From the NCBI GenBank assembly GCA_964347285.1, contig CAYFYE010000004.1, positions 731 to 64,730 on the forward strand: a stretch of 64,000 nt of DNA, in the 5' to 3' direction. The notes under the pieces were generated by a model. That model had not been told where the DNA came from. It ran no database searches and worked only from the letters and a program-made list of their open reading frames with translations. How positions within the stretch are numbered: the stretch's first letter is position 1; every line of letters starts with the position of its first letter. Shown here one piece after another: positions 8,436 to 31,016 of the stretch. The translations under genes and the position numbers were made by a program. Origin of the DNA: an uncultured Acidimicrobiia bacterium. GTDB lineage: Bacteria > Actinomycetota > Acidimicrobiia > Spongiisociales > JAOTWH01.

Positions 8436-8459
8436 CGTGCGATGCTATACACCGAAAGT

Positions 8460-8496: not shown

Positions 8497-8527
8497 GCGG
8501 TGCTCCGCAACTGCGGAGATCCGCGAC

Positions 8528-9097
8528 CTACTTGAGGATCTGCTGTCCCGTGCTGAGCTGGAACACGCTGTCCCCAAACATGATGACCGCCGTAGTCTCT
8601 GTGAGGCTGACCACCTTGTAGACGTCCGCAAACGTGTCGCCTACGCCGACATCGAACGTCTCGCCGTTCACGGTGATGGTGGCCCGCAGGACCCCACCCA
8701 CGGTGCGAATCTCGACGAGGGCCACGGTCACTTCGGGAGCGAACCCGTTTTCGGGTGGGACCACGCCATTCTCGGATGGGACCAGGCTGGGGCCCACCCC
8801 CGGCTGCCCGAAGAAGGGCGAGTCCTCGGTGATGAGAGGGCGGAAGGGATCCCGGGGCTGCGATATCTGTGCCTCCCCGGTGATTTCGATGGCGCCGGTC
8901 ACTTCCAGTGGTTGATCCACCGGGGATCCCACGCCGGCCAGGGGGCCCTCGAGGCCCGACCGGCTCGGGGCGAACAGCCCGGAGTCCACCACCGCCCAGC
9001 CGGAGGCCACCCCGGTGGCGATCAGCAGGGCGGCCGCCACCGTGGCCACCAGGCCTCGGCCCCGGCGTGGCTCATGAAGTCCTCGTGGTTCGATCAT
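8528..9097 (-). CDS. Type IV pilus-associated PilP-like protein with N-terminal TM helix
   Basis: Coupled to pilO (ATGA overlap); hydrophobic N-terminal segment; PRDPFRP motif; Pro-rich linker; beta-rich C-terminal domain. Confidence 0.6.
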   Translation of the reverse strand: MIEPRGLHEPRRGRGLVATVAAALLIATGVASGWAVVDSGLFAPSRSGLEGPLAGVGSPVDQPLEVTGAIEITGEAQISQPRDPFRPLITEDSPFFGQPGVGPSLVPSENGVVPPENGFAPEVTVALVEIRTVGGVLRATITVNGETFDVGVGDTFADVYKVVSLTETTAVIMFGDSVFQLSTGQQILK

Positions 9098-9759
9098 GGC
9101 GTCTCCTCCCCGCCCGCGTCGGTGGGAGCGACCTCTCCGCTCTCCTCGGCGGGAGCCTCTTCGCCCTCCTCGGCGGGAGCCTCGCCGCCCTCGGGGGCCG
9201 GGGCCAGCGGCGTCGGCAGGTTCGTTTCCAGCGTGAAGATCTGGGCGCTGATGCTGGAACTGACGCTGAGATTGCCGTCTTCATCGAACGAACTCGTGAT
9301 CGACAGCGCATCGATACGGACGAGGCGGTCCAGGTCGGCCAGGCCGTACAGGAATCCGAGTATCTCGAAGAACTGCCCCTCGACGGCGATACTCACGGGC
9401 ACCGAGACGAACGGCAACCCTTCGGTGGCCTCGGGAAGTGACGGTGTCAGGCTGCTGATCTCGACCCCGGCTTCGATCGCCAGGAGGTTGACGTCCTCGA
9501 TGAACTGCGCCAGCTCGGGAGTGCGGGGTATCGAGCGCTCCAGCTCCGCCGCGGCCCGTCTGAATGTCAGCTCGCTCTCCTGGATGGCCAGCAGAGCCGC
9601 CTTCTGACCGCGCAGGGCCTGGGCCTCGGTCTGGGCCGTGGCGATCTGATCGTCCGAGTCGGAGATCTCGCTTCGCTTGGGGTTGATGAAGAAGATGAAC
9701 CAAACCACCGTGACGACCAGCACCCCCAGGACCACGAGCAGAAGCGTGCTCCTCCTCAT
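9094..9759 (-). CDS. pilO: Type IVa pilus alignment protein PilO
   Basis: N-terminal TM, coiled coil, LERSIP..PELAQFIEDV, GQFFEILGFL..L..LDRLVRID; follows pilN. Confidence 0.88.
   Translation of the reverse strand: MRRSTLLLVVLGVLVVTVVWFIFFINPKRSEISDSDDQIATAQTEAQALRGQKAALLAIQESELTFRRAAAELERSIPRTPELAQFIEDVNLLAIEAGVEISSLTPSLPEATEGLPFVSVPVSIAVEGQFFEILGFLYGLADLDRLVRIDALSITSSFDEDGNLSVSSSISAQIFTLETNLPTPLAPAPEGGEAPAEEGEEAPAEESGEVAPTDAGGEETP
9142..9183 (-). repeat. 18-bp direct repeat (period 24) encoding acidic EAPAEE repeats in the PilO tail
   Basis: CTCCTCGGCGGGAGCCTC at 9142-9159 and 9166-9183. Confidence 0.8.
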
Positions 9760-10364
9760 CAGAACTCGGGAATCCTCCGCTCGAGCCGATCGGAGAGGGC
9801 CTCATCGGTGATGAACGTCGACGAGGTGAAGCGCACCACCGGCATCTCACCGATCAGGGCCTCCGAGAGGTTGGTGACCCAGGTTTTGTCAACCCCCGGG
9901 AAGCTCGTTGAGTCGAGGGCGCGCAGCCAGGCGGCGACATCGGGGAAGGCGAAGGCGGTCCCGGAGATCTGGATTTCCCCAATGGCGCCTGTTTCGGGGT
10001 TGACGGTGCCGGAGAAGGAATCGATCCACACCCGGTCGGGAATCACCCGGCCCAGGTCGTTGAGGAGGCGGCCCCAGACCACGTCATTCTCCAAGGCGGC
10101 GGCCAGCACCAAGACTGAGGCGTCGAATTCGGCTTTGATCCCCTCGAACTCGGACAGTTCCTCGACCTCCAGGCGGAGATCGTCGACGACGTCCTGCTCC
10201 TGGGCCAACTCGGCCTCCTTGTCGTCGACCTTCCCCTGCCACCACAGCGTGGCCGCTACCAGCAACGCCACATAGGCGATGCCGAGCACTACCCAAAGAG
10301 AGCGGCGTCGGCGGACCTTGGCCTTCTCCAACGCCTCCGGCGGGAGAAGGTTGATGGCCCGCAT
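9759..10364 (-). CDS. pilN: Type IVa pilus alignment protein PilN
   Basis: MRAINLLP motif, TM helix, W..LLNDL..VIPDRVWI; TGATG coupling to pilM places the start at 10364. Confidence 0.9.
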   Translation of the reverse strand: MRAINLLPPEALEKAKVRRRRSLWVVLGIAYVALLVAATLWWQGKVDDKEAELAQEQDVVDDLRLEVEELSEFEGIKAEFDASVLVLAAALENDVVWGRLLNDLGRVIPDRVWIDSFSGTVNPETGAIGEIQISGTAFAFPDVAAWLRALDSTSFPGVDKTWVTNLSEALIGEMPVVRFTSSTFITDEALSDRLERRIPEF

Positions 10365-11434
10365 CAGATCGTTCCCCAAAGAGCCAGGCCGACGCTCGTC
10401 GGTAGGACGGGCTGGGCGTCGAGCAGCTCGGCCTCGGTCAGATGTACGCGGCCCACGTCGACGCGTTCGAGCACCTTGGCCGCCTCGATCGGCGTGTCGA
10501 GGTCCCGACCCAGCCGGGCGGCGAGGTGGGGCAGGCGAGCTCCATTTCCCGCCACCACGATGCGCTCCAGGGCCGGTTCCCCTGATTGCCCGAGATAGAA
10601 GTTGACCGACCCCCGAATCTCATCGATGAGAGAATCTGCCTCGGCGGTGAGGAGGCGACGAGCCGCCTCCTCCTGCTCGTCGCCCGGCTCGGTCTCCCCG
10701 TCTCGCACCACGCCCAGGCGTCTCTTGAGAGACTCGGCCTCGTCGACTTCGATCCCCAATCCCGTGGCGAGAGTGGTAGTGAAGGCGTCTCCGCCCCGGG
10801 GCAGAATCCGCACGAAACGGGCCACACCGGCTCGCACGAACACGATCTGAGTGATCGTTCCGCCGATGTCCACGATCCCCTGCGGTGCCTCCTCGGCCAG
10901 CGGAAGCTCGGCCCCGATGGCGGCACGCACGAGGGCGAACGGCTGGAGGTCTACCGCCAAGGGAGCGATCGAGGCTGCCGAAGCCACCCGCACCAGGCCC
11001 TCGACGACCTCCTGGTGAGCCGCCACGACGAGAATCGACATCATCGCTTCCCCCTCGGGCGTGGTGAACTCCTCGATGGGAATGAAGTCGAGACGCGCCT
11101 CCTCGACCGGCATCGGGATCGAGTCCTGGACCTGGAACGGGAGGGCCTCGGCCAGCTCTTCCTCGCTCATCTGGGGAACATCGACCTGGCGAACAATCAC
11201 CCGCTGGTTGGCGGTGCCGATGACCACCCGCTTCTTCGGAAGCTTGGCCCGCTTCCACAGGGCGGCGACGGCTTCCGCCACTGCGTCTTCGTCGATGAGC
11301 TCCCCGGCCTCCACGGACCCCGGCGGCAGGGGCATCTCGGCAAAACGCCGAAGGATGAGTTTCGACTTTCGTGAATCGACTGCGGCAGCGCGCACAGCCA
11401 CACTGCCAATATCGAGGCCAACCGTAACCGGCAT
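10364..11434 (-). CDS. pilM: Type IVa pilus actin-like protein PilM
   Basis: VGLDIGS, VIVRQVDVP, FQVQDSIPMPVEEARLDF, VDIGG, GG..FT, GNGARL. Confidence 0.95.
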   Translation of the reverse strand: MPVTVGLDIGSVAVRAAAVDSRKSKLILRRFAEMPLPPGSVEAGELIDEDAVAEAVAALWKRAKLPKKRVVIGTANQRVIVRQVDVPQMSEEELAEALPFQVQDSIPMPVEEARLDFIPIEEFTTPEGEAMMSILVVAAHQEVVEGLVRVASAASIAPLAVDLQPFALVRAAIGAELPLAEEAPQGIVDIGGTITQIVFVRAGVARFVRILPRGGDAFTTTLATGLGIEVDEAESLKRRLGVVRDGETEPGDEQEEAARRLLTAEADSLIDEIRGSVNFYLGQSGEPALERIVVAGNGARLPHLAARLGRDLDTPIEAAKVLERVDVGRVHLTEAELLDAQPVLPTSVGLALWGTI

Positions 11435-11555
11435 CTCCGCTCCGCCTCACCGTTGCTCGGCGTGGTCCTTTCCGGACCCAACACAGCCCGGAAGAACTAC
11501 ATGTATGTGATTTGGAGGCTAGCAACCCCCCCGCCCGTCACCAAGGACCCGACCC

Positions 11556-12326
11556 TCAGATGCCCCGATACCAATCGGCCAGCTGCTGCCCCACCGCCAG
11601 GGCCGCGAACGCTCCGGTCACCAGGGCCGGGCCGAAGGGAACCGCATCTTTGCGGCCGCGCCGGCCGGTAACCAGGAGAGCGAGAGCCACCAGCCCGCCG
11701 CCGAGAACGGCCAGAGCGACGCCTGCGCCGAGGACTCCCCACGACTGATAGGCGAGGAAGAGCCCGAGCAGGGCAGCCAGCTTGACGTCACCGAAGCCGA
11801 ATCCTCCCCTGGCGACCAGAGCTACGACGAAGAGTCCACCGAAATAGGCCGCAGCCCCGGCCAGCGCCCGGACGTAGGAGTCCAAGTCGCCGTCCAGCAG
11901 CGCCCCGGCGAGCAGGAGTCCGGCACCGACCGCCAGGCCGGGAAAAAGGATCCGGTTGGGGATGCGCTGGTGATCGAGATCGGTGAGCACGAGCACCAGG
12001 CCGACGGCAACGAACCAGAGGTAGGCCGGCAGCGTCCACGAGGCTCCGATGACGACCACCGTGGCACCCCACAGCCCTGCCGTCGCCGCTTCGACGATGG
12101 GATAACGCGGCGAAATGGCGCCATCACAGTCTCGGCAACGTCCCCTCAGCAGGAACCACGACAGCACCGGGATGTTGTCGCGAGGCCGGATCGGGGCTCC
12201 GCACGCCGGGCAGGCGGAACCGGGACTGACGACGGAGCGTCCGGCCGGCACCCGGTACGCCACCACGTTGAGAAAGGAGCCGGCGATCAACCCCAGTGCG
12301 CCGGTCACGACCGTTAGAGCTACCAA
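11556..12326 (-). CDS. pilD: Prepilin peptidase / N-methyltransferase (A24A)
   Basis: GSFLNVVAYRVP, CPAC..CRDC zinc motif, SPRYPIVE, catalytic DLD and GFGDVKL; TTG start ~12326. Confidence 0.95.
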   Translation of the reverse strand: MVALTVVTGALGLIAGSFLNVVAYRVPAGRSVVSPGSACPACGAPIRPRDNIPVLSWFLLRGRCRDCDGAISPRYPIVEAATAGLWGATVVVIGASWTLPAYLWFVAVGLVLVLTDLDHQRIPNRILFPGLAVGAGLLLAGALLDGDLDSYVRALAGAAAYFGGLFVVALVARGGFGFGDVKLAALLGLFLAYQSWGVLGAGVALAVLGGGLVALALLVTGRRGRKDAVPFGPALVTGAFAALAVGQQLADWYRGI

Positions 12327-12781
12327 CTGTTTCCAGTGCAGTCGGTTACATCGTCCACGTCGGCCTCCGAACCTTTGCAGGTATAGCGGCCCGCATCCGG
12401 CCCCACTTGCACCAGCTTGATACCGAACCAAGTGCCGCTGCCCGATCGAGCGTACAACAGGACCTGTCCGTTGTCACCGGCATCGACTGCATCACCCACG
12501 ACCACGTGGATCGAGTGGGGCTGGGCGCCGCTGAAATCGAGGCTGGGCTCTTCGAGGCCCAGCTGGGCGACGTCGCCGGTGAAGCCCGAGCCGTCGGCGC
12601 CGATGATCGCCTCGACTTTGGCCCCGTTGACGAGATCACTCTTGGCGGCACTGTCCTGGGCACGACTGCGGAAGCCGAGATAGGTCGGAATGGCGATGCC
12701 GAGCAGAAGAGCGATGATCAGAACGACCACCATCAGCTCGATGAGGGTGAATCCCGTCTCGCGATTGCGGGCGATATGCAT
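12320..12781 (-). CDS. Second type IV pilin (class III signal peptide)
   Basis: RETG|FTLIELMVVVLIIALLLGIAIP with E5; C-terminal Cys pair. Confidence 0.92.
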   Translation of the reverse strand: MHIARNRETGFTLIELMVVVLIIALLLGIAIPTYLGFRSRAQDSAAKSDLVNGAKVEAIIGADGSGFTGDVAQLGLEEPSLDFSGAQPHSIHVVVGDAVDAGDNGQVLLYARSGSGTWFGIKLVQVGPDAGRYTCKGSEADVDDVTDCTGNSW

Positions 12782-12807
12782 CTCGTGCTCCGAACGCTTC
12801 CCCCCTG

Positions 12808-12834
12808 ATATCGGCAGTGCATCGGGAGGCCTGA
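12808..12834 (-). promoter_or_regulatory. Putative sigma-28/WhiG-type promoter of the second pilin
   Basis: Minus strand TCAGG-N15-CCGATAT, just downstream of the pilA terminator. Confidence 0.6.
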
Positions 12835-12847
12835 AGGATTCCCAACG

Positions 12848-12881
12848 AGAAGACGGGCCCGGGGTTCCGGGCCCGTCTTCT
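12848..12881 (-). terminator. Strong hairpin downstream of pilA
   Basis: 15-bp perfect stem AGAAGACGGGCCCGG / CCGGGCCCGTCTTCT with a 4-nt loop, 20 nt after the pilA stop. Confidence 0.85.
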
Positions 12882-12901
12882 GCGTCGTATGCGCCTGGCG
12901 C

Positions 12902-13378
12902 TTACTTCCAGCCGTCGGCGGTGTAGCCGGCGGGCAGCGTGAAGGGAGCGGTCGTGTCGTCGGCCGGACACGGCGCCGTGGCCGCCGCTTTGGCATAGCC
13001 AACGCCGGCCGATTCGCCGACCCAGATCGAGAACACTCCGCCGGAGGCGCTCTCCCGCTCGAGGCAGACCGAGCCGGCGCCGGTGGTCACCGCCACGGCG
13101 ACCGCGCTGTCGGCGTCCAAGTCGATGCTGGGCTCGATCGTCTTCAGCTCGTCCTCGGTCGTCGAGTAGACGTTGTTCTCCGTCCACCAGGCCTGCTCGG
13201 CCAGGAGGGCGTTGCGCAGATCGCTCTGAGCGCTGCGGTCCTGGGCGTTCTTGCGGAAGCCCAGGAACGAGGGGATGGCAATGGCGACGAGCACTGCAAT
13301 GATGAGCACCACGACCATCAACTCGATGAGGGTGAAGCCTTCGTCCTTGTGAAGGCGTTCACTCATCCTTTTGAGCAT
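12902..13378 (-). CDS. pilA: Type IV major pilin candidate
   Basis: KDEG|FTLIELMVVVLIIAVLVAIAIP, AQSDLRNA, Cys pair; GGAGG SD, own promoter and own terminator. Confidence 0.93.
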   Translation of the reverse strand: MLKRMSERLHKDEGFTLIELMVVVLIIAVLVAIAIPSFLGFRKNAQDRSAQSDLRNALLAEQAWWTENNVYSTTEDELKTIEPSIDLDADSAVAVAVTTGAGSVCLERESASGGVFSIWVGESAGVGYAKAAATAPCPADDTTAPFTLPAGYTADGWK

Positions 13379-13432
13379 GTGCGAACCTCCTGAGACATTC
13401 GCGCCGGGCCGTACCTCGGCCTGACCAGGGGA

Positions 13433-13460
13433 ATATCGGTTGCGCCTTTTCGCGACTTGA
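13433..13460 (-). promoter_or_regulatory. Putative sigma-28/WhiG-type promoter of pilA
   Basis: Minus strand TCAAG-N16-CCGATAT. Confidence 0.7.
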
Positions 13461-13568
13461 GCGCTTCATGTGGTGGTTCGGCTACCCACCGTATGACTAG
13501 TCATCGAGGGCTCAGCGGTAACGGCGGAGTCGGCACCGAGGCGGAGCCGGAGGGTCGAGGGCCTTGAC

Positions 13569-14792
13569 TCAATTGAGCAGGTTGGCCACGTTGAACATCG
13601 GCAGGTAGAGCGCGATGAGGATCCCGCCAACCGTGGTACCGAGCAGGATGATCAGCAGGGGCTCGATGAGGCTGGTGAGGGCGTTCACGGTGTCGTCGAC
13701 CTCGCGGTCGTAGAAGTCCGACACCTTGGCGAGCATCTCGTCGATGGCGCCGGTCTCCTCGCCCACCGCCATCATCTGCACGACCATGGGCGGGAACACT
13801 GGATGGCGATCCAGCGGCGAGGCCATCGACTCGCCCTGTTTCACCGAATCTCTCACGTCGACCAGGGCTCTGGCCAGGACGGCGTTTCCGGCCGTCTGGG
13901 AGACGATCTCGATGGCGTTGAGGATGGGAACGCCGGTGCGGCTCAGCACCGACAGGCTGCGCGAGAAGCGGCTCAGTGCCGTCTTGTGGGTCAGTTTGCC
14001 GAAGACAGGAATCTTCAGCTTGAAGGCATCGAAGGCAGATCGCCCCGACTCGGTGGCAATCCAGCGGCGCAACCCAAACACGACGGCGATGATCAGCAGC
14101 ACGGCGACGTACCAGTAGGTCGACAGGATGTTGCCGGCGCTGATGAGGGCCTTGGTGGGGAGCGGCAGGTCGCCGCCCAGCTCGGAGTACATGCCCTCGA
14201 ACATCGGCACGACGAAGATGAGCATGGCCGTCACGATCACCGCCACCAGGCCCAGGACGACGATGGGGTAGGCCATCGCCGACTTCACCTTGGATCGCAG
14301 GGTGACCGTGGCCTCCATCATGTCGGCCAGTCGCTCCAGCGTTTCGTCCAGGACACCGCCGACCTCACCGGCCCGGACCATTGCCACGAAGAGGTTGTTG
14401 AACACTTTGGGGTGCTTCGACATCGCGGCCGACAGGCTGGAACCCTTCTCGACCTCGCCCCTCACCTCGCCCACGACGGTGGCCAGGGCAGCACTCTCGG
14501 TCTGCTGTTCGAGGATCGACAGGGTGCGGATCAAGGACAAGCCGGAATTCACCATCGTGGCGAACTGTCGACTGAAGATCGCGATCTCCTTCACTTTGAC
14601 CCGATTGGACAGAGCGGGGATCTTGATCTCCATCTGGAGAGCAGAAACCTTCTTCTTCTCGACCGAGAGCGGAACCATGCCCCGCTCCCGGAGCGTTCGA
14701 ACGACCGCGCCGGCCGAATCGCCCTCGAGTTCGCCGCTCAGGACGTTCCCGGACTTGTCCCTGACCTTGTATGCAAACGTTGATGCGCTCAT
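13569..14792 (-). CDS. pilC: Type IV pilus platform protein PilC (T2SS F family)
   Basis: FSRQFATMVNSGL, VRAGEVGGVLDETL, KVKSAMAYP, GEETGAIDEML, LPMFN. Confidence 0.96.
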   Translation of the reverse strand: MSASTFAYKVRDKSGNVLSGELEGDSAGAVVRTLRERGMVPLSVEKKKVSALQMEIKIPALSNRVKVKEIAIFSRQFATMVNSGLSLIRTLSILEQQTESAALATVVGEVRGEVEKGSSLSAAMSKHPKVFNNLFVAMVRAGEVGGVLDETLERLADMMEATVTLRSKVKSAMAYPIVVLGLVAVIVTAMLIFVVPMFEGMYSELGGDLPLPTKALISAGNILSTYWYVAVLLIIAVVFGLRRWIATESGRSAFDAFKLKIPVFGKLTHKTALSRFSRSLSVLSRTGVPILNAIEIVSQTAGNAVLARALVDVRDSVKQGESMASPLDRHPVFPPMVVQMMAVGEETGAIDEMLAKVSDFYDREVDDTVNALTSLIEPLLIILLGTTVGGILIALYLPMFNVANLLN

Positions 14793-16387
14793 CAGCCCTT
14801 ACCAACCAGATTCCGGAACTCCTCGGGGCTCTGGGAGTGATCGACTGCCGCGTCGTAGGAGACCTTTCCTTGTCTGACCAAAGCGGCCAGCGACTGATCC
14901 ATCGTCTGCATCCCGTACTTGGCGCCGGCCTGCATTGCCGAGGCGATCTGGTGCGTCTTGCCCTCACGGATCAAGTTGCGAATGGCGGAGTTGGCCACCA
15001 TCACCTCTACGGCCGGAATTCGCCCCCTGCCGTCTACGGTCGGCAGCAGCTGCTGGGACACGACCGCCTGGATGGAGCCGGACAGCTGGACCCGGACCTG
15101 CTGCTGCTGATGGCTGGGAAAGACGTCGATGACGCGATCGATCGATTGCGGGGCGTCCTGGGTGTGCAGCGTGCCCAGCACGAGATGGCCTGTCTCGGCG
15201 GCGGTTATTGCGGTTGAGACGGTCTCCAGATCCCGCATCTCGCCCACCAGGATCACGTCGGGGTCCTGACGGAGCGCGTGCTTGAGAGCCGCGGCAAACC
15301 CCAGAGTGTCGGTGCCCACCTCCCGTTGGTTGACGATGGCTTCTTTGTGCCGATGCATGAATTCGATGGGGTCTTCGACCGTCATCACGTGGCATTTTCG
15401 AGTTGCGTTGACGACGTCTATCAATGAAGCGAGCGTGGTCGACTTCCCCGAGCCGGTCGGCCCGGTGACGAGGACCAGGCCGCGTGTCAGCTTGGCGAAA
15501 TGGGCAATGATCGGCGGCATGGCCAACTCGGTGAGGGAGAGGATCTCGTTGGGAATGGCTCTCATGACCGCTCCCACCGAATCTCGTTGGAAGAACACGT
15601 TGACCCGGAAGCGGCCCTTGCCGGGAAGCGGATGCGAGCAATCCAGCTCCCGCGTCTCTTCGAGCTGCTCGCGCTGGCGGCCGGTGAGGATCTCGTAGAT
15701 CATCGAGCGAAGGACGGCCGGTAACAGCATCGGGAAATCATCGATCGGCGTCAGCTCGCCGTTGATCCGGATCTGGGGAGGCGATCCGGCAGTGAGATGT
15801 AGATCGGATCCGCCCCGCTCGAGCAGAGTCTCGAGGAGTTCGTTGACGTGGGGACGGTCACCTTGCTGCGCTTCGGCAATGACTTCGATACCGCGGGGCG
15901 CGGCAACGCCCTCCTGAGCGTCGCCGGCGGCGGATTCGGCCAGCCCGGCGTAAGCCGCCTTGATGAGCAGCTCGAGCGGCTGCTTGTGCGCCAATCCCAG
16001 CACCACCTCGCCCCCGGTGGCCCGGCGCAGCATGGCCAGCTTCTCCTGATTGAAGGGGTCGGCGACGGCCATCACGATTCGTCCGGTCTCGTCGATGCTC
16101 ATCGGCAGCGCTGCCAACCGGCGGGCCACCTCCGGGTCGAGGCGCCGCATCGCCGCCGGATCGGGTTGATCTCCGGTTTTGGGATCGAGGCTGAAGAAAT
16201 CCAGGCTGAGCTCTCCGGCCACCACGGAGAGAATGTCCTCACTCCGCACCCGCCCCTCGTCGACCAGCAGGCGCGGCAGCGGAGTGCCCGACTCCTCGGC
16301 TCGCTGAAGCTGGTGCTCCAGGTCGTCCTTGGTGAGGAGACGGTTATCGACCAGGAGTTGGCCGAGCTGCCGTGCGACCTTGCTCAT
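14792..16387 (-). CDS. pilT: PilT retraction ATPase with N-terminal MshEN/T2SSE_N-like extension
   Basis: GGSDLHL, GPTGSGKSTT, TVEDPIE, RQDPDVILVGEMRD, AETGHLV, PilT signature AIRNLIRE; core starts at about residue 180 of 531. Confidence 0.93.
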   Translation of the reverse strand: MSKVARQLGQLLVDNRLLTKDDLEHQLQRAEESGTPLPRLLVDEGRVRSEDILSVVAGELSLDFFSLDPKTGDQPDPAAMRRLDPEVARRLAALPMSIDETGRIVMAVADPFNQEKLAMLRRATGGEVVLGLAHKQPLELLIKAAYAGLAESAAGDAQEGVAAPRGIEVIAEAQQGDRPHVNELLETLLERGGSDLHLTAGSPPQIRINGELTPIDDFPMLLPAVLRSMIYEILTGRQREQLEETRELDCSHPLPGKGRFRVNVFFQRDSVGAVMRAIPNEILSLTELAMPPIIAHFAKLTRGLVLVTGPTGSGKSTTLASLIDVVNATRKCHVMTVEDPIEFMHRHKEAIVNQREVGTDTLGFAAALKHALRQDPDVILVGEMRDLETVSTAITAAETGHLVLGTLHTQDAPQSIDRVIDVFPSHQQQQVRVQLSGSIQAVVSQQLLPTVDGRGRIPAVEVMVANSAIRNLIREGKTHQIASAMQAGAKYGMQTMDQSLAALVRQGKVSYDAAVDHSQSPEEFRNLVGKG

Positions 16388-16409
16388 CTCCGTTCGTTCC
16401 CGATGTTCA

Positions 16410-18080
16410 CTAGGCGACTACCCGTAGGACTTCTTCCAACGTCGTCGATCCGAGGCGTACCTTCTCCAACCCGTCTTCGCGCAGGGTTTTCATGCCTTGC
16501 TCGACGGCCATTGCCTTGACCTCGTCCGAGGGCCGTCGCTCTACGGCCATCCGCTGAATCTCCTCGCTCACCAGCATCACCTCGTTGATGGCGACCCGGC
16601 CTCGATAGCCCGTCTTGGAGCAGTTGACGCACCCGGCGGCCCGGTGCAACTCGGGAAAGTCGTCGAGCGTGAACCCGAACCTGGCGAGCTCGGACGCTTC
16701 GGGTTGATAGATCTCCTTGCACTTTCCGCACAGGCGGCGAGCCAGACGCTGGGCCACCACACAATCGAGCGCCGAGCTCACCAGATAGGCCTCCACCCCC
16801 ATCTCGATGAGGCGTCCCACGCTCGAGGCGGCGTCGTTGGTGTGGAGCGTGGAGAGGACCAGGTGACCGGTCAGTGCGGCCTCGACCGCGATCTTGGCAG
16901 TTTCGGCGTCGCGGATCTCACCGACGAGCACGATGTCGGGATCGGAGCGCAGGATGGATTTCAGAGCAGTCGAGAAGAGGAGCCCGGCCTTCCTGTTGAC
17001 CTGGACCTGAGTGATTCCTTCGAGCCGGTACTCGACCGGATCCTCCACCGTGATGATGTTGACGTCGGGTTTGTTGAGGATGCCCAGCGTGGAATACAGG
17101 GTGGTGGTCTTGCCGGATCCGGTGGGTCCGGTCAGCAGGATCGCCCCGTACGGCTTCGTGTAGGAGGATCGATAGCGCTCCAGGGCGGCCGGGAGGAAGC
17201 CGAGTTCCTCGAGAGTGCCCACCGAATCTGTTTTGTCGAGGATTCGCAGCACGGCCTTCTCCCCGTACATGGACGGAAGGGTGGCGACCCGCAGATCGAT
17301 GGGGCGCCCCCCCACCCGCAGACTCACGCGGCCGTCCTGGGGCACCCGGCGCTCGGCGATGTTGATGTCGGCCATGATCTTCAGACGGGAGATCACTGCA
17401 GCGGCAATAGCGCGCGGGGTGCTCATGACCTCCTGGAGCACTCCGTCGATGCGGAAGCGCACCCGGAGGTCGCGCTCGCCCGGCTCGACGTGGATGTCCG
17501 ACGCTCGCTCGTTCACCGCCCGGGTGATCAACGTGTTGAGCAGCTTGACCACCGGCGCTTCCTCCACGGCGGCTTCCAGGCCCTCGAGATCCTCGGTTTG
17601 GTCCTCTTCTCCGAGAGCCAGATCGGCCAGGTCGGTCACCGATGCGCCGAAGCTGGACATTCGACGGATGGCCTCGCTGATGTCGGAGCGGGTGGCCACC
17701 TTGGGTGCGATGTCGTAGCCGGTGACCGCTCGCATGTCGTCGATGGCCAGCACGTTGGCGGGATCGGCCATTGCCACAACGAGCCGGTCCTCCTCGAAGC
17801 CGATCGGGACGGCGCCGTAGCGAGTGGCCAGGTAATCGGGTACCAATGCGGTGGCGGCCGGATCGATGTTCACGTTGCCGAGATCGACGTACTCCAACCC
17901 GATCTGGCGGGCGAGGACCTTGACGAGCTCGGCCTCGTCGATCAGCCCTTCGTCGACGAGCACCCGGCCCAGCGGCATGCCCGACTCGGCCTGGAGGCTG
18001 ACCGCCTTGTCGAGCTGGTCGCGACTCAGCAAGCCTTCTTCCAGCAGCATGGTGCCCAAATGGCGGGCGTCGCTCGTCAC
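16410..18080 (-). CDS. pilB: PilB extension ATPase with tandem MshEN motifs
   Basis: HLGTMLLEEGLL..PLGRVLVDEGLI..LARQ, ASDIHVEP, GPTGSGKTT, LRSDPD..GEIRD, CGKC/CVNC zinc motif; GTG 18080 after GGGGAG SD preferred over 18125. Confidence 0.96.
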   Translation of the reverse strand: MTSDARHLGTMLLEEGLLSRDQLDKAVSLQAESGMPLGRVLVDEGLIDEAELVKVLARQIGLEYVDLGNVNIDPAATALVPDYLATRYGAVPIGFEEDRLVVAMADPANVLAIDDMRAVTGYDIAPKVATRSDISEAIRRMSSFGASVTDLADLALGEEDQTEDLEGLEAAVEEAPVVKLLNTLITRAVNERASDIHVEPGERDLRVRFRIDGVLQEVMSTPRAIAAAVISRLKIMADINIAERRVPQDGRVSLRVGGRPIDLRVATLPSMYGEKAVLRILDKTDSVGTLEELGFLPAALERYRSSYTKPYGAILLTGPTGSGKTTTLYSTLGILNKPDVNIITVEDPVEYRLEGITQVQVNRKAGLLFSTALKSILRSDPDIVLVGEIRDAETAKIAVEAALTGHLVLSTLHTNDAASSVGRLIEMGVEAYLVSSALDCVVAQRLARRLCGKCKEIYQPEASELARFGFTLDDFPELHRAAGCVNCSKTGYRGRVAINEVMLVSEEIQRMAVERRPSDEVKAMAVEQGMKTLREDGLEKVRLGSTTLEEVLRVVA

Positions 18081-18115
18081 GTCGTGCTCCCCGAGAGAAG
18101 GGTTTCTCCCCCTCC

Positions 18116-18144
18116 TCGTCGGCACCTAGCGTGGCGTCCTTAAG
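18116..18144 (-). promoter_or_regulatory. Putative sigma-28/WhiG-type promoter of pilB-pilT-pilC
   Basis: Minus strand TTAAG-N16-CCGACGA in the short aroE-pilB gap. Confidence 0.55.
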
Positions 18145-18155
18145 ACATTCGGTGG

Positions 18156-23054: not shown

Positions 23055-23067
23055 GGTCGCAGGCAGG

Positions 23068-23271
23068 TTAGTGCCCGGTCCCCTCCCCGCTCTGGGGAGC
23101 GACCACCCGTCCCGTCCATGCCAGGACGTCGGCGGCGGCCGCTACCGCGGCCCGACGGAGATTCGAGGGTGTCAGGCGTTCTCGCATTCTCACCAGCTTG
23201 GTGACGAGGTACGCCCCACCTCCGACTGCGGTGATCAATCCGGCTAGGAACCAGCGAATTCGCAGCAGCAT
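23068..23271 (-). CDS. Small single-TM protein upstream of alaS (resembles DUF6167-type proteins)
   Basis: MLLRIRWFLAGLITAVGGGAYLVTKLVRMRERLTP; ATG 23271 preceded by TACTCT -10 at 7 nt. Confidence 0.7.
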   Translation of the reverse strand: MLLRIRWFLAGLITAVGGGAYLVTKLVRMRERLTPSNLRRAAVAAAADVLAWTGRVVAPQSGEGTGH

Positions 23272-23333
23272 CGGGCCAAGAGTACCGGGCGGACCCGACC
23301 GCGACTCGCCCAATCCGGGCGGGATGGACCTCG

Positions 23334-28345: not shown

Positions 28346-28408
28346 CGCCTTGGCAGCGTACTCAGGTGGAAAGGGACTGTGATCCCCGGCGAGAAGCCGG
28401 GAATCGTC

Positions 28409-29860
28409 CTACAGCAGTTCCTGGGTGGCGACGATCTGGACTCCGTCAAACTTCTTGAGCATGAAGTCCGAGGTCAAATCATCGTCCATGACGATATTCG
28501 CACTGCCTTCGGTCGAGCTCTCCCGAAGGGGGCTCGACGCCGAGTCGCAGGCTGATTCCACGACGACGTTCCCAAAGACGTTGATCCCCGAGGAGTACCG
28601 GACCTGCTCATGGGTTGCCAGAAGTCCTTTGACGCCGATCTGCGACTCGATATTCAGATCACCGCCGGCAACGAAGACGTATTTGTTCGCTCCGGGAGGT
28701 GCCTCGAGATCCCCCTGGCTCATGACGTGGATGGTGCCGCCCGACGTCGAGCAGTCCATCGCGGCGTCAACCGTTCCGGCCAGGATGCTCCACTGGGTGA
28801 TGCCGTCCCTCGGCCTCTTCGGCCGCACGATCACGTCGGCGCCGTCTACATAGAACACTCCGGGCGGAACGCGGCTCCTCTCGAACTCGACCGTCGTAGA
28901 TCCCACTCCGAATATGCCGAGATTGGGATGCATGAACGCTCCCGAGCACGGCTTGCCCGGCTCCGCCCTCATCTCCTCGGCGACGGCCGTATTGGCCGGA
29001 CCGGCATACACCCCGCTGGCGGGTGGCGAGAAAGACGCCCCGAAGCGGCAGACGTCGTACTCGGAACGATGGTGGGCACTGAGTGGATTGATGGATGGGA
29101 TGAACTGGTACTCCACCTCGACGGGACAGTCGGGCCCCTCCGTGGATTCCGGGTCGTATCCGGTGACGCACTCGTCGACGATTGCGGCTCCGCCCTGAAC
29201 GTCCATCTTTCCGTTCGTATGCGCGCCGCCGGTGATGAAGCTGCCACCGGTGATCGTGAGTGGACCGTCGGAGAGGATGGCGACTCCAGGGTCCCATGCC
29301 TCGGTTCCGACGAGCGGCCAGTAATCCACGACGACTACTCGCTCCTTGCGGACGCCGGCGTCGAGAGCAGGAGTGAAGCCCACCCCGTACAGCACCAGCC
29401 CCTCCTCGGGGCCGACGACCACGACCTCACCTTCTGGGGTCTCGAGGACCGTGTCGGGCTCGGCGCTCGCCAGAGACTCGGCGGCATCGAGCACATCCTG
29501 TTTGGTGGGAGAGGACGGCATGGAGACCATATTCACTGCATCACTCAGGTCGAGGCTTTCGATGACGTCATCAACGTCGTCGAACGTCGTGGGGACATCA
29601 TCGAAGATCGGATCGAGCGCGGTGAGGGTCGTATCGATTCCACTCTCGGCGACGTGGACCGCCTGTTCGAATGTGCGATCTCCACTGACCACGCGGTTTT
29701 CGCTCGCAGTAGTGACGACCAAGACCACGGATATGGCGACGAGGATGGCACCCAGGATGACCACCGAGGCCATGGCCAGTCCGCGTTCTTCCCTGCGCAG
29801 CCGATTGGCCAGACCCATGATTCGACGGTCTCTCGGCGTGCCGGTTTTACTCATCATCAC
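28409..29860 (-). CDS. PilX-like minor pilin with large C-terminal domain
   Basis: REERG|LAMASVVILGAILVAISVVLVV (no E5), A..VAESG motif, Gly/Val/Ile-rich beta-repeat C-terminus, 6 Cys. Confidence 0.8.
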   Translation of the reverse strand: MMMSKTGTPRDRRIMGLANRLRREERGLAMASVVILGAILVAISVVLVVTTASENRVVSGDRTFEQAVHVAESGIDTTLTALDPIFDDVPTTFDDVDDVIESLDLSDAVNMVSMPSSPTKQDVLDAAESLASAEPDTVLETPEGEVVVVGPEEGLVLYGVGFTPALDAGVRKERVVVVDYWPLVGTEAWDPGVAILSDGPLTITGGSFITGGAHTNGKMDVQGGAAIVDECVTGYDPESTEGPDCPVEVEYQFIPSINPLSAHHRSEYDVCRFGASFSPPASGVYAGPANTAVAEEMRAEPGKPCSGAFMHPNLGIFGVGSTTVEFERSRVPPGVFYVDGADVIVRPKRPRDGITQWSILAGTVDAAMDCSTSGGTIHVMSQGDLEAPPGANKYVFVAGGDLNIESQIGVKGLLATHEQVRYSSGINVFGNVVVESACDSASSPLRESSTEGSANIVMDDDLTSDFMLKKFDGVQIVATQELL

Positions 29861-29864
29861 GCTC

Positions 29865-30383
29865 CTATTGGCTGTTCCGCGCCTCGACCGTCGTTTGCAC
29901 CGATCGCGCTTTTACCGAGTCGGAAGGGTCGAGATCGATGGCGAGGGTGAGGGTGAGGGTGTTGTCGGCCACGGCGAACTCACTGTCGGCGGCGATCACT
30001 CCCCGCGCCACCATTGCGGCCGGGTCCGAGCTGTCGTCGGTCGACCGCTGCAGGGTTCCGTCACCCAAGATCTCATAGGTGACCAGCTCCCCGACATCGG
30101 GAGCTCCGCCACTTCTGTCCTCGTCCACCCAGAACGAGAATGAATCGTCGCCGCTGCCGGGCGGGTAGATCTCGGTCGCGAAGCGGACCTCCTTGACAAT
30201 GCGACTCTTGGCGGCGCGCAGGGCGTCGATCACTTCCAGACGCGCCTCTTGGGCACGGTCGGCGCGCACTACAGCGATCATCCACGTGACCATGCCGGCG
30301 GTCACTACTGCAGCGATGAACATCGCCACCATCAGCTCGACCAGCGTCAAACCCCGCTGGTCACGGTGCGTGAACCTCCTCAC
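29865..30383 (-). CDS. PilW/PulJ-like minor pilin
   Basis: RDQRG|LTLVELMVAMFIAAVV; GTG 30383 overlaps the upstream stop. Confidence 0.85.
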   Translation of the reverse strand: MRRFTHRDQRGLTLVELMVAMFIAAVVTAGMVTWMIAVVRADRAQEARLEVIDALRAAKSRIVKEVRFATEIYPPGSGDDSFSFWVDEDRSGGAPDVGELVTYEILGDGTLQRSTDDSSDPAAMVARGVIAADSEFAVADNTLTLTLAIDLDPSDSVKARSVQTTVEARNSQ

Positions 30384-30871
30384 CGGGACCTCGCTCTCGA
30401 GAACAGCGACGAGGTGTGGTGTTCGCGCTCGGTGCCTCCGGCCGACCAGTTGACGATGACGACCACGCGTCGCAGGTCGGCGTCGACTTCGGTGACGTAC
30501 TGCCAAACGACGAATTCCTGGCCGTCGAGAGTTTCGATGCGCCTCGGGTCGATGAGACCGGCACTGGCGTCGATGACCAGCGCTTCGTTGCCGGGGAGGT
30601 CGGCCGCCGACGCTTTGAGGTTGCTTCCGGCCACCCTAGGGTCACCCGCTTCGACGGTCGACATCGCCACCTCGTCCCAGGTCATCGATCGAGCCGTCTC
30701 CACGCCCTCGATGCTGAGCTGGGTAGCCTGCTCCTGGATCCGTGCTTCGCGACCGCTGCGAAAGCTGGCGTTCAACGAAGCCCCCAGCGCGACGAACAGG
30801 ATCACCGCCAGGACCAGTGCCACCAGCCCTTCCACGATCGTGAAGCCGCGCTCGTTCACGGCGAAATCCAT
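30380..30871 (-). CDS. PilV/PulI-like minor pilin
   Basis: NERG|FTIVEGLVALVLAVILFVALG...VRRV-type C-terminal strand (LRRVVVIVNW); start ATG 30871 or 30916. Confidence 0.85.
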   Translation of the reverse strand: MDFAVNERGFTIVEGLVALVLAVILFVALGASLNASFRSGREARIQEQATQLSIEGVETARSMTWDEVAMSTVEAGDPRVAGSNLKASAADLPGNEALVIDASAGLIDPRRIETLDGQEFVVWQYVTEVDADLRRVVVIVNWSAGGTEREHHTSSLFSRARSR

Positions 30872-30925
30872 GGATCGCCGACTCGTTGGGCGCGTTGTCC
30901 TGGGGCTGGTTGCCATTCAGTAGGG

Positions 30926-30953
30926 CTATCGACCACCGTTCGCGGCGACTTGA
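30926..30953 (-). promoter_or_regulatory. Putative sigma-28/WhiG-type promoter of the minor-pilin operon
   Basis: Minus strand TCAAG-N16-TCGATAG; shares TCAAGTCGC with the pilA promoter. Confidence 0.65.
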
Positions 30954-31016
30954 GGCGGGTCCGCCACGACAGTGGGTCATTCGCCTCCGAAAGGAATGAC
31001 TAGCTACCGGAACCGG

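What the first reader, a model, noticed from the sequence alone, without database searches (positions are those of the whole stretch)
8528..30953. Complete monoderm type IVa pilus system with apparent multi-level c-di-GMP wiring
Seen: pilB, pilT, pilC, two pilins, pilD, pilMNO, a PilP-like gene and a separate pilVWX-like operon. MshEN-like motifs occur on both ATPases, and four units share a sigma-28-type promoter. Known: MshEN binds c-di-GMP, and WhiG is held by the c-di-GMP-dependent anti-sigma RsiG. Inference: c-di-GMP could act on pilus gene transcription, on extension and possibly on retraction. This is the best candidate for an uncharacterised system in the window.
Basis: partly seen in the sequence, partly recalled or inferred. 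Interest (0 to 1): 0.65.

Follow-up and report, generated by a model that had tools for sequence, protein, structure and literature searches.

The report
Acidimicrobial pilus cluster under WhiG control
This is a complete, secretin-less type IV pilus gene set from an uncultured Acidimicrobiia bacterium, apparently switched on by the WhiG sigma factor as already shown in Rubrobacter; its unusual parts are a retraction motor carrying an extra PilB-type N-terminal domain and a PilP-like protein with no secretin partner.

Summary
On the minus strand lie pilB, pilT, pilC, two pilins, pilD, pilMNO and a PilP-like gene (8528-18144). A separate minor-pilin operon lies at 28409-30954. Four WhiG/sigma-28-type sites, (C)TCAAG-N15-nCCGATA, precede pilB, both pilins and the minor-pilin operon. 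The pilB and major-pilin sites are conserved across Acidimicrobiia families.

The genome (2.6 Mb MAG) has one WhiG, a twin-helix RsiG homologue and six GGDEF genes, four of which carry the same site. It has no flagellar FlhA and no secretin.

- **Transcription:** c-di-GMP control through RsiG-WhiG is well supported, but it was published for Rubrobacter in 2021 and predicted for other actinobacteria in 2026.
- **Extension:** PilB's MshEN motif is near-canonical, with one tolerated deviation, so c-di-GMP control of extension is plausible.
- **Retraction:** PilT does carry a complete MshEN-fold domain, but its motif is degenerate, with six of 22 key positions off. None of 117 family members fits even the relaxed motif. 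Direct c-di-GMP control of retraction is therefore unlikely, about 0.2-0.25.

Undescribed in the searched literature: the N1D-PilT fusion (one ancient event, widespread in the class) and a PilP/GspC-HR-fold protein in a secretin-less genome.

Verdict: a new variant of a known kind, of moderate interest.

The parts
8528..9097 (-). PilP-like protein (189 aa). It has a TM helix at residues 14-38, a disordered linker with an invariant QPRDPFxPL (77-88), and a C-terminal PilP/GspC-HR-fold beta domain (124-188). It has no lipobox Cys.
   Evidence: TIGR03021 E 1.6e-4, below cut-off. Family alignment. AF2 mean pLDDT 78.8, C-domain >93. Foldseek top 12 hits are all PilP/GspC-HR/GspB, with TM 0.77 to 3oss_C.
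9094..9759 (-). pilO
   Evidence: Pfam PilO 6.4e-15
9759..10379 (-). pilN
   Evidence: Pfam PilN 2.6e-9
10364..11434 (-). pilM (actin-like platform protein). No WhiG-type site lies upstream of it.
   Evidence: Pfam PilM_2 1.4e-43. Upstream sequence read. No PWM hit.
11556..12431 (-). pilD prepilin peptidase. The true start is probably downstream of 12431, because the longest ORF overlaps pilin2.
   Evidence: Pfam A24_N_bact 3.9e-32 and Peptidase_A24 1.7e-14
12320..12781 (-). Second pilin (153 aa, ...RETG|FTLIELMVV...)
   Evidence: N_methyl 2.3e-8; NCBIfam pilin models
12808..12836 (-). WhiG-type promoter-like site before pilin2: CTTCAG-N15-GCCGATAT
   Evidence: PWM 17.7 bits, genome rank 27; sequence
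12843..12887 (-). GC-rich hairpin directly after pilin1 (terminator-like, no U tract)
   Evidence: RNA fold -45.5 kcal/mol, z -7.2, 0 of 200 shuffles as stable
12902..13378 (-). Major pilin candidate (158 aa, ...KDEG|FTLIELMVV...), monocistronic
   Evidence: N_methyl 1.9e-8; orthologous pilins in relatives
13433..13461 (-). WhiG-type promoter-like site before pilin1: CTCAAG-N15-ACCGATAT
   Evidence: PWM 21.0 bits, genome rank 7. The same motif sits upstream of the major pilin in most relatives' loci where a pilin was found, at least 9 of 14.
13569..14792 (-). pilC platform protein
   Evidence: Pfam T2SSF 3.3e-64, two repeats
14792..16387 (-). N1D-PilT fusion (531 aa). Residues 1-160 are an MshEN/GSPII-fold domain with a degenerate c-di-GMP motif. 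Residues 181-523 are a complete PilT with AIRNLIRE.
   Evidence: TIGR01420 483 bits; MshEN 2.3e-12; NF053729 35.5 < 38. 32% identity to PilB N1D, E 6e-18. AF2 pLDDT 92.5 with Foldseek hits to PilF GSPII-B and MshE 5HTL. Motif statistics.
16410..18080 (-). pilB extension ATPase. The likely true start is GTG 18080 (VTSDARHLG...); the longest ORF reaches 18125. Its N-terminal MshEN has a near-canonical double motif.
   Evidence: TIGR02538 624 bits; MshEN 6.8e-23; NF053729 59.9 > 38. Start inferred from relatives' N-termini and promoter position. PDB hits to PilF, MshE and PilB N-domains.
18116..18144 (-). WhiG-type promoter-like site before pilB-pilT-pilC: CTTAAG-N15-GCCGACGA. It lies in the 30-nt gap after aroE.
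   Evidence: PWM 14.9 bits, rank 84. It is weak alone, but orthologous sites sit at the same place in at least 12 relatives.
28409..29860 (-). 483-aa PilX-like large minor-pilin / tip-protein candidate (hydrophobic N-terminus RGLAMASVVILGAIL...)
   Evidence: No Pfam or NCBIfam hit. Translation. Assignment rests on position and N-terminal segment only.
29865..30506 (-). Minor pilin. The N_methyl motif is at residues 48-72 of the longest ORF, so the true start is near 30390.
   Evidence: N_methyl 7.5e-9; HpsC/GspH-like N-terminus
30380..30871 (-). PilV-like minor pilin. The likely start is ATG 30871 (MDFAVNERG|FTIVEG...).
   Evidence: TIGR02523 pilV weak, HpsB-like; translation
30926..30954 (-). 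WhiG-type promoter-like site before the minor-pilin operon: CTCAAG-N15-GTCGATAG
   Evidence: PWM 20.8 bits, genome rank 8; sequence

Best explanation
The stretch holds the type IVa pilus machinery of an uncultured, monoderm Acidimicrobiia bacterium. It sits between aroC and aroE, with a separate minor-pilin operon about 10 kb away.

Transcription:
- Four of its transcription units start from promoters of the WhiG (sigma-28 family) type: pilB-pilT-pilC, the major pilin, a second pilin with pilD, and the minor-pilin operon.
- The genome's single WhiG has no flagellar genes to serve. It is paired with a twin-helix RsiG homologue.
- By homology with Streptomyces and Rubrobacter, c-di-GMP-loaded RsiG sequesters WhiG. 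High c-di-GMP should therefore switch pilus gene transcription off.
- The same promoter type precedes four of the six GGDEF genes, an HD-GYP gene, several sensor kinases and a second PilT paralogue. That would give feedback on c-di-GMP itself.

Extension: PilB carries a near-canonical MshEN double motif and probably binds c-di-GMP, as MshE and PilF do.

Retraction:
- The cluster's PilT is a true retraction-type ATPase that long ago acquired a complete PilB-type N1D (MshEN-fold) domain.
- The domain's c-di-GMP motif is degenerate throughout the family. It most likely serves as a docking or regulatory module, for example on the PilM/PilC platform, not as a canonical c-di-GMP sensor.

Shown: genes, folds, motif content, promoter conservation and enrichment, and the presence of WhiG, RsiG and DGC genes.

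Inferred: use of the promoters by WhiG, c-di-GMP binding by RsiG and PilB, the sign of regulation, and the role of the PilT N1D.
For: Gene content.

Taxon and MAG.

WhiG: 272 bits against a cut-off of 189.6, at xerC-whiG-rpsB-tsf-pyrH-frr.

RsiG homologue (contig C80, 179 aa):
- E 2e-11 over the full length to S. venezuelae RsiG (6PFJ/6PFV), and 3e-4 to R. radiotolerans RsiG 7LQ4.
- Single copy in 106 of 151 class genomes.
- Motif residues are conserved in relatives.

No FlhA and no secretin. Six GGDEF genes.

Promoters:
- CTCAAG-N15-GCCGATAA is conserved upstream of the major pilin and of pilB in loci from many families, while the surrounding sequence is not conserved.
- With a PWM built from relatives only, the own genome gives 38 hits at or above 17 bits against 5-12 in shuffles. 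18 of the 38 fall in the 15% of the genome that is non-coding.
- Four of the six GGDEF genes have a site just upstream of a start codon.
- Other targets include PilT2, an HD-GYP gene, a CheA-like kinase, sensor kinases and response regulators.

Published precedent and consensus, T(A/C)AA-N16-GCCGATAA. RsiG is reported in 3 of 4 Acidimicrobiales.

PilB motif. Position-1 substitutions are tolerated in binders.

PilT N1D:
- Fold.
- Degeneracy: 0 of 117 match the relaxed motif. Gly10 of motif I is kept in 3%, Gly3 of motif II in 1%.
- One ancient fusion: PilB-N1D and PilT-N1D are split by a single 100/100 branch.
- Full-length matches in about 39 of 151 class genomes.
Against: - No transcription start sites or expression data exist. 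Only DNA metagenome runs hold the locus.
- The pilB site is weak on its own (14.9 bits, rank 84).
- pilMNO-pilP has no such site.
- This genome's RsiG has Ala in place of the conserved Ser in helix alpha-1, and Tyr/Glu in place of Gln/Asp in alpha-5. Its c-di-GMP affinity is therefore uncertain.
- Motif rules are imperfect predictors. PilF GSPII-A fails to bind even after its consensus is restored, and Gln-to-Glu mutants of GSPII-B still crystallise with c-di-GMP bound.
- Relatives' PilB N1Ds show a median of 3 deviations from the relaxed motif.
- My gene calls for the genome-wide test are rough (GC3-based).
Confidence: 0.75

Rival explanations
1. c-di-GMP acts at three levels, including directly on retraction, because the PilT N1D is a working, non-canonical c-di-GMP receptor.
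For: - The domain has the complete MshEN fold with high model confidence and matches c-di-GMP-bound GSPII-B and MshE.
- The hydrophobic Leu/Val positions 2, 6, 7, 12, 17 and 21 that stack on guanine are 79-100% conserved.
- NF053729 misses its cut-off by only 2.5 bits.
- Glu can replace the motif Gln in PilF GSPII-B crystals that still hold c-di-GMP (PMC12207366 listed).
- The N-domain is under clear purifying selection across the class.
Against: - None of 117 family members fits even the relaxed motif of Wang et al. 2016.
- Gly10 of motif I is Arg in 94 of 117.
- Gly3 of motif II, whose backbone NH binds the guanine, is Ala, Pro or Thr in 99% and Pro in this protein.
- Position 11 of motif II is polar or charged.
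- PilF GSPII-A, with one degenerate half, does not bind.
Confidence: 0.2
2. The pilus genes are WhiG-dependent, but in this lineage the switch is not gated by c-di-GMP. RsiG would act as a plain anti-sigma factor, or respond to another signal, so there is no c-di-GMP wiring at the transcription level.
For: - This genome's RsiG has lost the Ser of the alpha-1 motif.
- Its alpha-5 has Tyr for Gln and Glu for Asp.
- No Acidimicrobiia RsiG has been tested for binding in the papers read.
Against: - Relatives keep [DE]xxxSxxRxxxHxxxD in alpha-1 and ExxxSxxR in alpha-5.
- His at the Gln position is common in RsiG homologues and judged compatible with binding.
- WhiG-type sites precede four of six GGDEF genes and an HD-GYP gene. 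This linkage matches the Rubrobacter c-di-GMP feedback design.
Confidence: 0.12
3. The shared upstream motifs are not WhiG promoters. They would be chance matches, or sites for another sigma or regulator.
For: - The -35 element is TCAAG, not the textbook TAAA, and the strict textbook pattern gives no hit in the window.
- Several top PWM hits fall in regions I called coding.
Against: - The two-block architecture keeps a fixed 15-nt spacing, and its position is conserved before pilin and pilB in many families.
- Enrichment is four-fold over shuffles and three-fold in non-coding DNA.
- TCAA is part of the published WhiG2 consensus T(A/C)AA.
- Only one sigma-28-family gene passes the cut-off in the genome.
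Confidence: 0.04

Closest known systems
Rubrobacter radiotolerans (RsiG)2-(c-di-GMP)2-WhiG switch controlling type IV pilus genes (Schumacher et al. 2021, PMC8325347). The phylum-wide WhiG2 regulon prediction is in Denis et al. 2026 (bioRxiv 10.64898/2026.01.14.699351).
   Same: - A non-flagellated actinobacterium has one WhiG and an RsiG.
- Several sigma-28-type promoters lie inside the T4P cluster.
- The same promoter type also lies before DGC/PDE genes.
   Different: - The class is different (Acidimicrobiia). It is not treated in either paper's regulon analysis, although RsiG was noted in 3 of 4 Acidimicrobiales.
- RsiG here is the twin-helix monomer type, not the single-motif dimer.
- The -35 element is TCAAG.
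- There is no TSS mapping or biochemistry here.
c-di-GMP-binding extension ATPases: V. cholerae MshE (5HTL), T. thermophilus PilF GSPII-B/C, M. xanthus PilB and C. perfringens PilB2
   Same: PilB has an N-terminal MshEN domain with two tandem 24-residue motifs joined by a 5-residue spacer. It passes NCBIfam's c-di-GMP motif model.
   Different: Position 1 of motif I is His, with an Arg one residue earlier. Binding is untested.
Canonical PilT retraction ATPases (P. aeruginosa, V. cholerae, about 345 aa)
   Same: The PilT core is complete, with Walker motifs and AIRNLIRE, and covers TIGR01420 in full. The gene sits between pilB and pilC.
   Different: - It carries about 180 extra N-terminal residues forming a full PilB-type N1D/MshEN-fold domain.
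- Canonical PilT has none and is listed as not binding c-di-GMP (PMC10333796).
- No description of such a fusion turned up in the paper searches.
T. thermophilus PilF GSPII-A domain (9G1W; Neissner et al. 2025, PMC12002112)
   Same: It has the MshEN fold with a degenerate binding motif. GSPII-A is the top Foldseek hit for the PilT N-domain model, and it is a natural non-binder.
   Different: GSPII-A sits on an extension ATPase next to two binding domains. Here the degenerate domain is the only N-domain, and it is on a retraction ATPase.
PilP / GspC HR domain / GspB of diderm T4aP and T2SS
   Same: The C-terminal beta-sandwich fold matches. The gene sits right after pilMNO. An RDPF-type motif lies in the linker.
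   Different: - It is anchored by a TM helix, not a lipid.
- The genome has no secretin for the HR domain to bind.
- The family is confined to Acidimicrobiia-like sequences and is mostly annotated as hypothetical.

Membership tests
Type IVa pilus machinery (monoderm form) | PilB-type extension ATPase, PilT-type retraction ATPase, PilC platform protein and PilD prepilin peptidase | tested here: met
   TIGR02538 624 bits (just under its 675 equivalog cut-off). T2SSE 6e-139, TIGR01420 483 > 319, T2SSF 3e-64, A24_N + Peptidase_A24.
Type IVa pilus machinery (monoderm form) | PilM, PilN and PilO alignment proteins, with major and minor pilins carrying the G|FTLxE class III signal | tested here: met
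   PilM_2 1e-43, PilN 3e-9, PilO 6e-15. Four ORFs carry N_methyl motifs.
Type IVa pilus machinery (monoderm form) | No outer-membrane secretin | tested here: met
   PF00263 finds nothing in the 90%-complete genome, while the control genomes ring.
MshEN c-di-GMP receptor domain | MshEN/GSPII fold (4-helix N-subdomain plus alpha/beta C-subdomain) | tested here: met
   PilB: phmmer to PilF, MshE and PilB N-domains, E 1e-54 to 1e-18. PilT N-domain: AF2 pLDDT 92.5, Foldseek hits to 8PFA, 8PDK and 5HTL with TM 0.64-0.67.
MshEN c-di-GMP receptor domain | Two tandem 24-residue motifs RLGxx(L/V/I)(L/V/I)xxG(L/V/I)(L/V/I)xxxxLxxxLxxQ, tested on PilB | tested here: met
   HLGTMLLEEGLLSRDQLDKAVSLQ, spacer AESGM, PLGRVLVDEGLIDEAELVKVLARQ. 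Only position 1 of motif I falls outside the relaxed motif. NF053729 scores 59.9 > 38.
MshEN c-di-GMP receptor domain | The same two motifs, tested on the PilT N-domain | tested here: not met
   QLGQLLVDNRLLTKDDLEHQLQRA and PLPRLLVDEGRVRSEDILSVVAGE have 3 + 3 key positions off. NF053729 scores 35.5 < 38. 0 of 117 family members match.
MshEN c-di-GMP receptor domain | Measured c-di-GMP binding | not testable with these tools
   Needs ITC or DRaCALA on the purified N-domains.
WhiG (sigma-28 family) regulon | A FliA/WhiG-type sigma factor encoded in the genome | tested here: met
   TIGR02479 272 bits > 189.6, a single hit over the cut-off. Conserved xerC-whiG-rpsB locus.
WhiG (sigma-28 family) regulon | Promoters matching T(A/C)AA-N16-GCCGATAA, placed upstream of start codons and conserved in relatives | tested here: met
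   Four window sites, footprinting in relatives, and enrichment over shuffles and in non-coding DNA.
WhiG (sigma-28 family) regulon | Transcription starts at these sites, dependent on WhiG | not testable with these tools
   No RNA runs hold the locus.
RsiG anti-sigma factor | Full-length homology to structurally defined RsiG | tested here: met
   Residues 21-176 align to 22-175 of the 176-residue 6PFJ chain, E 2e-11. Also 7LQ4, 7LQ2 and 7LQ3.
RsiG anti-sigma factor | Two E(X)3S(X)2R(X)3Q(X)3D c-di-GMP motifs | tested here: inconclusive
   Own alpha-1 is DxxxAxxRxxxHxxxD and alpha-5 is ExxxSxxRxxxYxxxE. Relatives keep Ser in alpha-1. His at the Gln position is accepted in the literature.
PilP / GspC HR-domain proteins | HR beta-sandwich fold | tested here: met
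   The Foldseek top 12 are all PilP, GspC-HR or GspB, with probability mostly 1.00 (0.92-1.00). 7 of 50 family members hit Pfam T2SSB.
PilP / GspC HR-domain proteins | Lipoprotein anchor and a secretin N0 partner | tested here: not met
   There is no Cys in the N-terminal segment, and a TM helix spans 14-38. No secretin is present in the genome.

The most novel reading that the evidence does not exclude
The N1D on PilT is a working control module. It would give the retraction motor the same docking domain as PilB, so the two motors compete for one site on the PilM/PilC platform. Because only PilB's N1D keeps the c-di-GMP motif, c-di-GMP would set the extension-to-retraction ratio by changing PilB's side of that competition. 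Alternatively, the PilT N1D itself binds c-di-GMP or another nucleotide in a non-canonical way. Either version would be the first retraction ATPase with a built-in regulatory N-domain. It would be conserved across a whole actinobacterial class and would work together with a PilP-like HR-domain protein that has lost, or never had, a secretin partner.
Probability: 0.2. Interest if true: 0.7.

Novelty: new variant of a known kind. Interest (0 to 1): 0.45.

Why it matters
- **WhiG-RsiG link.** It extends the link between WhiG-RsiG-c-di-GMP and type IV pili from Rubrobacter to Acidimicrobiia, a large, mostly uncultured class abundant in soils, sediments and waters. Pili and c-di-GMP turnover genes again appear to form one WhiG regulon. 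This supports the published idea that pilus control is an old role of this switch.
- **N1D-PilT fusion.** It flags a widespread, apparently undescribed PilT architecture. How extension and retraction motors take turns on one machine is an open question in the field. A PilT that carries PilB's own docking and sensor domain is a natural experiment on that question.
- **PilP-like protein.** A PilP-fold protein in a cell without a secretin raises the question of what the HR domain binds in monoderms.

Tried and rejected
1. The textbook pattern TAAA-N13-17-CCGAWA gave 0 hits in the window, and GCCGATA was not enriched. The local -35 element is TCAAG, so I moved to footprinting and a PWM.
2. The published search rule (one mismatch to T[AC]AA-N16-GCCGA) is too loose at 66% GC: it gives 1755 hits.
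3. RsiG was not found by the strict or mildly relaxed E..S..R..Q..D regex. The only exact match is a membrane protein on C6 and the next is GrpE. RsiG turned up only with a twin-site search allowing one mismatch and was then confirmed against the PDB.
4. I tried to fetch R. radiotolerans rsiG by its native primer sequence in genome contigs and found no match. The other primers in the paper belong to codon-optimised genes.
5. NCBIfam has no model that hits the RsiG homologue.
6. A PDB sequence search with the PilP-like protein gave nothing. Only the fold comparison worked.
7. The sigma-70 and terminator scan of the cluster found no sigma-70-like promoter and missed the pilin1 hairpin, which has no U tract.
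8. A search for RNA-seq runs to map transcript 5' ends found only DNA metagenomes.
9. ComEC is present, but it is present in most bacteria, so it does not decide between DNA uptake and motility.
10. The WhiG-like site before the M23-peptidase/rsiG pair scores only 13.7 bits, so I do not claim autoregulation.

Full report
**What is there**

The window is 64-70% G+C, and all relevant genes run on the minus strand. Profile searches give, in transcription order:
- pilB (16410-18125)
- a PilT-family gene (14792-16387)
- pilC (13569-14792)
- a pilin (12902-13378)
- a second pilin (12320-12781)
- pilD (11556-12431)
- pilM, pilN and pilO (9094-11434)
- a 189-aa ORF (8528-9097)

Upstream of pilB lie housekeeping genes: aroE, mltG, ruvX, alaS, rarA, aspS, hisS and an MBL hydrolase. 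Beyond them is a second pilus operon at 28409-30916, with two prepilin-type genes and a 483-aa PilX-like gene. The gene downstream of the cluster is chorismate synthase.

The genome is a 2.63-Mb, 187-contig, about 90%-complete MAG. It has no secretin and no flagellar FlhA.

**The PilP-like gene**

By sequence it only grazes the PilP model (E 1.6e-4, below cut-off) and hits nothing in the PDB. I collected its family (284 proteins, nearly all unnamed, Acidimicrobiia). I then aligned 50 of them and predicted the structure.
- The model has a TM helix (residues 14-38).
- A disordered linker follows, with an invariant QPRDPFxPL.
- A confident C-terminal beta domain (pLDDT >93) completes it.

The twelve best PDB matches are all PilP, GspC-HR or GspB. 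So the label is right at the fold level. The protein has no lipobox, however, and the genome has no secretin for it to bind.

**Promoters**

The textbook sigma-28 pattern gave nothing in the window. Reading the intergenic regions showed a shared two-block motif, (C)T(C/T)A(A/G)G-N15-nnCGA(T/C)(A/G), before pilB, pilin1, pilin2 and the minor-pilin operon.

To test it independently, I took the pil loci of 20 other Acidimicrobiia genomes from many families.
- CTCAAG-N15-GCCGATAA-like sites sit upstream of the major pilin in most of the 14 loci where a pilin was found (at least 9). They also sit upstream of pilB in at least 12 loci. The surrounding sequence is not conserved.
- A weight matrix built only from those relatives' sites was run over the window's own genome. 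It gave 38 hits at or above 17 bits against 5-12 in shuffles, and 18 of the 38 fall in the 15% of the genome that I called non-coding.

The window sites score as follows:

| Site | Coordinates | Bits | Genome rank |
|---|---|---|---|
| pilin1 | 13433-13461 | 21.0 | 7 |
| minor-pilin operon | 30926-30954 | 20.8 | 8 |
| pilin2 | 12808-12836 | 17.7 | 27 |
| pilB | 18116-18144 | 14.9 | 84 |

The pilB site is weak alone but orthologous to the conserved sites. It also implies that pilB really starts at GTG 18080, which matches the N-termini of relatives. A very stable hairpin follows pilin1, so the major pilin is its own unit. pilM has no such site.

**Who reads these promoters**

- The genome has one FliA/WhiG-type sigma over the curated cut-off (272 bits). 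It sits at xerC-whiG-rpsB-tsf-pyrH-frr.
- With no flagellar export gene present, it is not a flagellar sigma.
- RsiG was missed by strict motif searches. A twin-site search allowing one mismatch found a 179-aa ORF on contig C80.
- That ORF matches S. venezuelae RsiG over its full length (E 2e-11) and R. radiotolerans RsiG as well (E 3e-4).
- The protein is single-copy in 106 of 151 genomes sampled across the class.
- Relatives keep [DE]xxxSxxRxxxHxxxD in helix alpha-1 and ExxxSxxRxxx[YFHQ]xxx[DEN] in alpha-5. This genome's copy has Ala for the alpha-1 Ser.

**A regulon that looks like Rubrobacter's**

Six GGDEF genes exist, and four have a WhiG-type site right before a start codon. Other well-placed sites precede:
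- a giant HD-GYP protein
- a REC-GGDEF-HD-GYP protein
- a CheA-like hybrid kinase
- two sensor kinases
- a response regulator
- the HEAT-repeat gene of an HD-GYP operon noted earlier in this scan
- a pilin-like paralogue
- a second, 363-aa PilT paralogue that lacks AIRNLIRE

This is the published Rubrobacter picture. There, three WhiG promoters lie in the pilus cluster and five lie before DGC/PDE genes, with TSS mapping and RsiG-WhiG-c-di-GMP structures (PMC8325347). The 2026 preprint gives the WhiG2 consensus T(A/C)AA-N16-GCCGATAA. It predicts pilus targets in five families, and Acidimicrobiia are not mentioned. The 2021 paper had already noted twin-motif RsiG in 3 of 4 Acidimicrobiales. The transcription-level wiring is therefore well supported here, but it is a new member of a known design.

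**The two ATPases**

PilB:
- Its N-terminus reads HLGTMLLEEGLLSRDQLDKAVSLQ-AESGM-PLGRVLVDEGLIDEAELVKVLARQ.
- Against the relaxed motif of Wang et al. 2016, only position 1 of motif I (His) is off.
- NCBIfam's c-di-GMP motif model passes (59.9 > 38).
- c-di-GMP binding by PilB is therefore likely.

PilT (531 aa):
- Residues 181-523 cover the whole PilT model and carry AIRNLIRE.
- Residues 1-160 align with PilB's N1D in register (32% identity, E 6e-18).
- That domain folds with pLDDT 92.5 into the complete MshEN/GSPII fold.
- The motif reads QLGQLLVDNRLLTKDDLEHQLQRA / PLPRLLVDEGRVRSEDILSVVAGE. Gly10 of motif I is Arg. Gly3 of motif II is Pro. Position 11 of motif II is Arg. Both closing Gln are gone.
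- Across 117 family members none fits the relaxed motif. Gly10(I) is kept in 3% and Gly3(II) in 1%, whereas the hydrophobic positions are 79-100% conserved.

Calibration cuts both ways:
- PilF GSPII-A, with one degenerate half, does not bind.
- Gln-to-Glu mutants of GSPII-B still hold c-di-GMP in crystals.
- Relatives' PilB domains themselves show a median of three deviations.

I put canonical binding by the PilT N1D at about 0.2-0.25.

The fusion:
- It is old and single. PilB-N1Ds and PilT-N1Ds separate on one branch with 100/100 support.
- It is widespread. Full-length matches occur in about 39 of 151 class genomes across many families, and all 120 best database homologues have the same two-domain architecture.
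- I found no paper describing a PilT with this domain.

**How it most likely works**

These steps are inferred.
1. At low c-di-GMP, free WhiG drives the pilins, pilB-pilT-pilC, the minor pilins and the second PilT, together with DGC/PDE genes that feed back on the signal.
2. As c-di-GMP rises, RsiG captures WhiG and new synthesis stops, while PilB's MshEN domain binds c-di-GMP and existing machines keep extending.
3. The two levels would thus have opposite signs: less new machinery, but more extension from machines already built.
4. The PilT N1D most likely docks the retraction motor on the platform as PilB's does.

Whether the pili serve motility, adhesion or DNA uptake cannot be told. ComEC is present, but that is uninformative.

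**Verdict**

The features I found no published description of are the N1D-PilT fusion and the secretin-less PilP-fold protein.

Noticed in passing
window 8528-9097 (-): A PilP/GspC-HR-fold protein is encoded after pilMNO in a genome with no secretin. It has a TM helix and no lipobox, and an invariant QPRDPFxPL in its linker. What the HR domain binds in a monoderm is unexplained.
   Followed up: partly
own genome, contig C76:6967-8082 (+): A second PilT paralogue of canonical length (363 aa) lacks the AIRNLIRE motif. It is preceded by one of the best WhiG-type sites in the genome (ATAAAG-N15-GCCGATAC, 20.2 bits). The only AIRNLIRE-bearing PilT is the N1D-fused one.
   Followed up: partly
own genome: C56:2579-3791, C60:8016-10116, C9:27482-29145, C73:2783-3999: Four of the six GGDEF genes carry a WhiG-type site immediately upstream of a start codon. 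An HD-GYP giant protein (C98) and a REC-GGDEF-HD-GYP protein (C9) are among the targets. This suggests WhiG-driven feedback on c-di-GMP, as in Rubrobacter.
   Followed up: partly
own genome, C106:2281-5416 (+): The third-best site in the genome (21.6 bits) precedes a CheA-like hybrid kinase (HPt-HATPase-CheW-REC), followed by a REC-domain protein. The pair lies between guaA and a UvrD/PcrA helicase. It may be a small chemosensory module in the same regulon.
   Followed up: no
own genome, C60:10229-10705 (-): A 146-aa protein has a C-terminal half resembling the major pilin (..AVCLWSEAASGTVFGIW..) but a non-canonical N-terminus. It has a 19.0-bit WhiG-type site and runs divergently from a GGDEF gene that has its own site.
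   Followed up: no
own genome, C80:8246-9974 (+): rsiG lies directly downstream of a coiled-coil M23 peptidase gene. A weak WhiG-like site (13.7 bits) precedes the pair. This genome's RsiG has Ala where all examined relatives have the motif Ser in helix alpha-1.
   Followed up: partly
That operon may therefore belong to the same regulon.
   Followed up: no
window 7284-18929: The whole pil cluster is inserted between aroC (chorismate synthase, 7284-8435) and aroE (18156-18929). From memory, mycobacteria keep a lone prepilin-peptidase-like gene at that position, which would fit cluster loss elsewhere in the phylum. I did not check this.
   Followed up: no
relatives' loci L008, L015, L022, L024 (pilB-pilT gap): In relatives with a longer pilB-pilT spacer, an extra WhiG-type site sits just before the fused pilT. 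In the window the gap is only 22 nt and has no such site.
   Followed up: no
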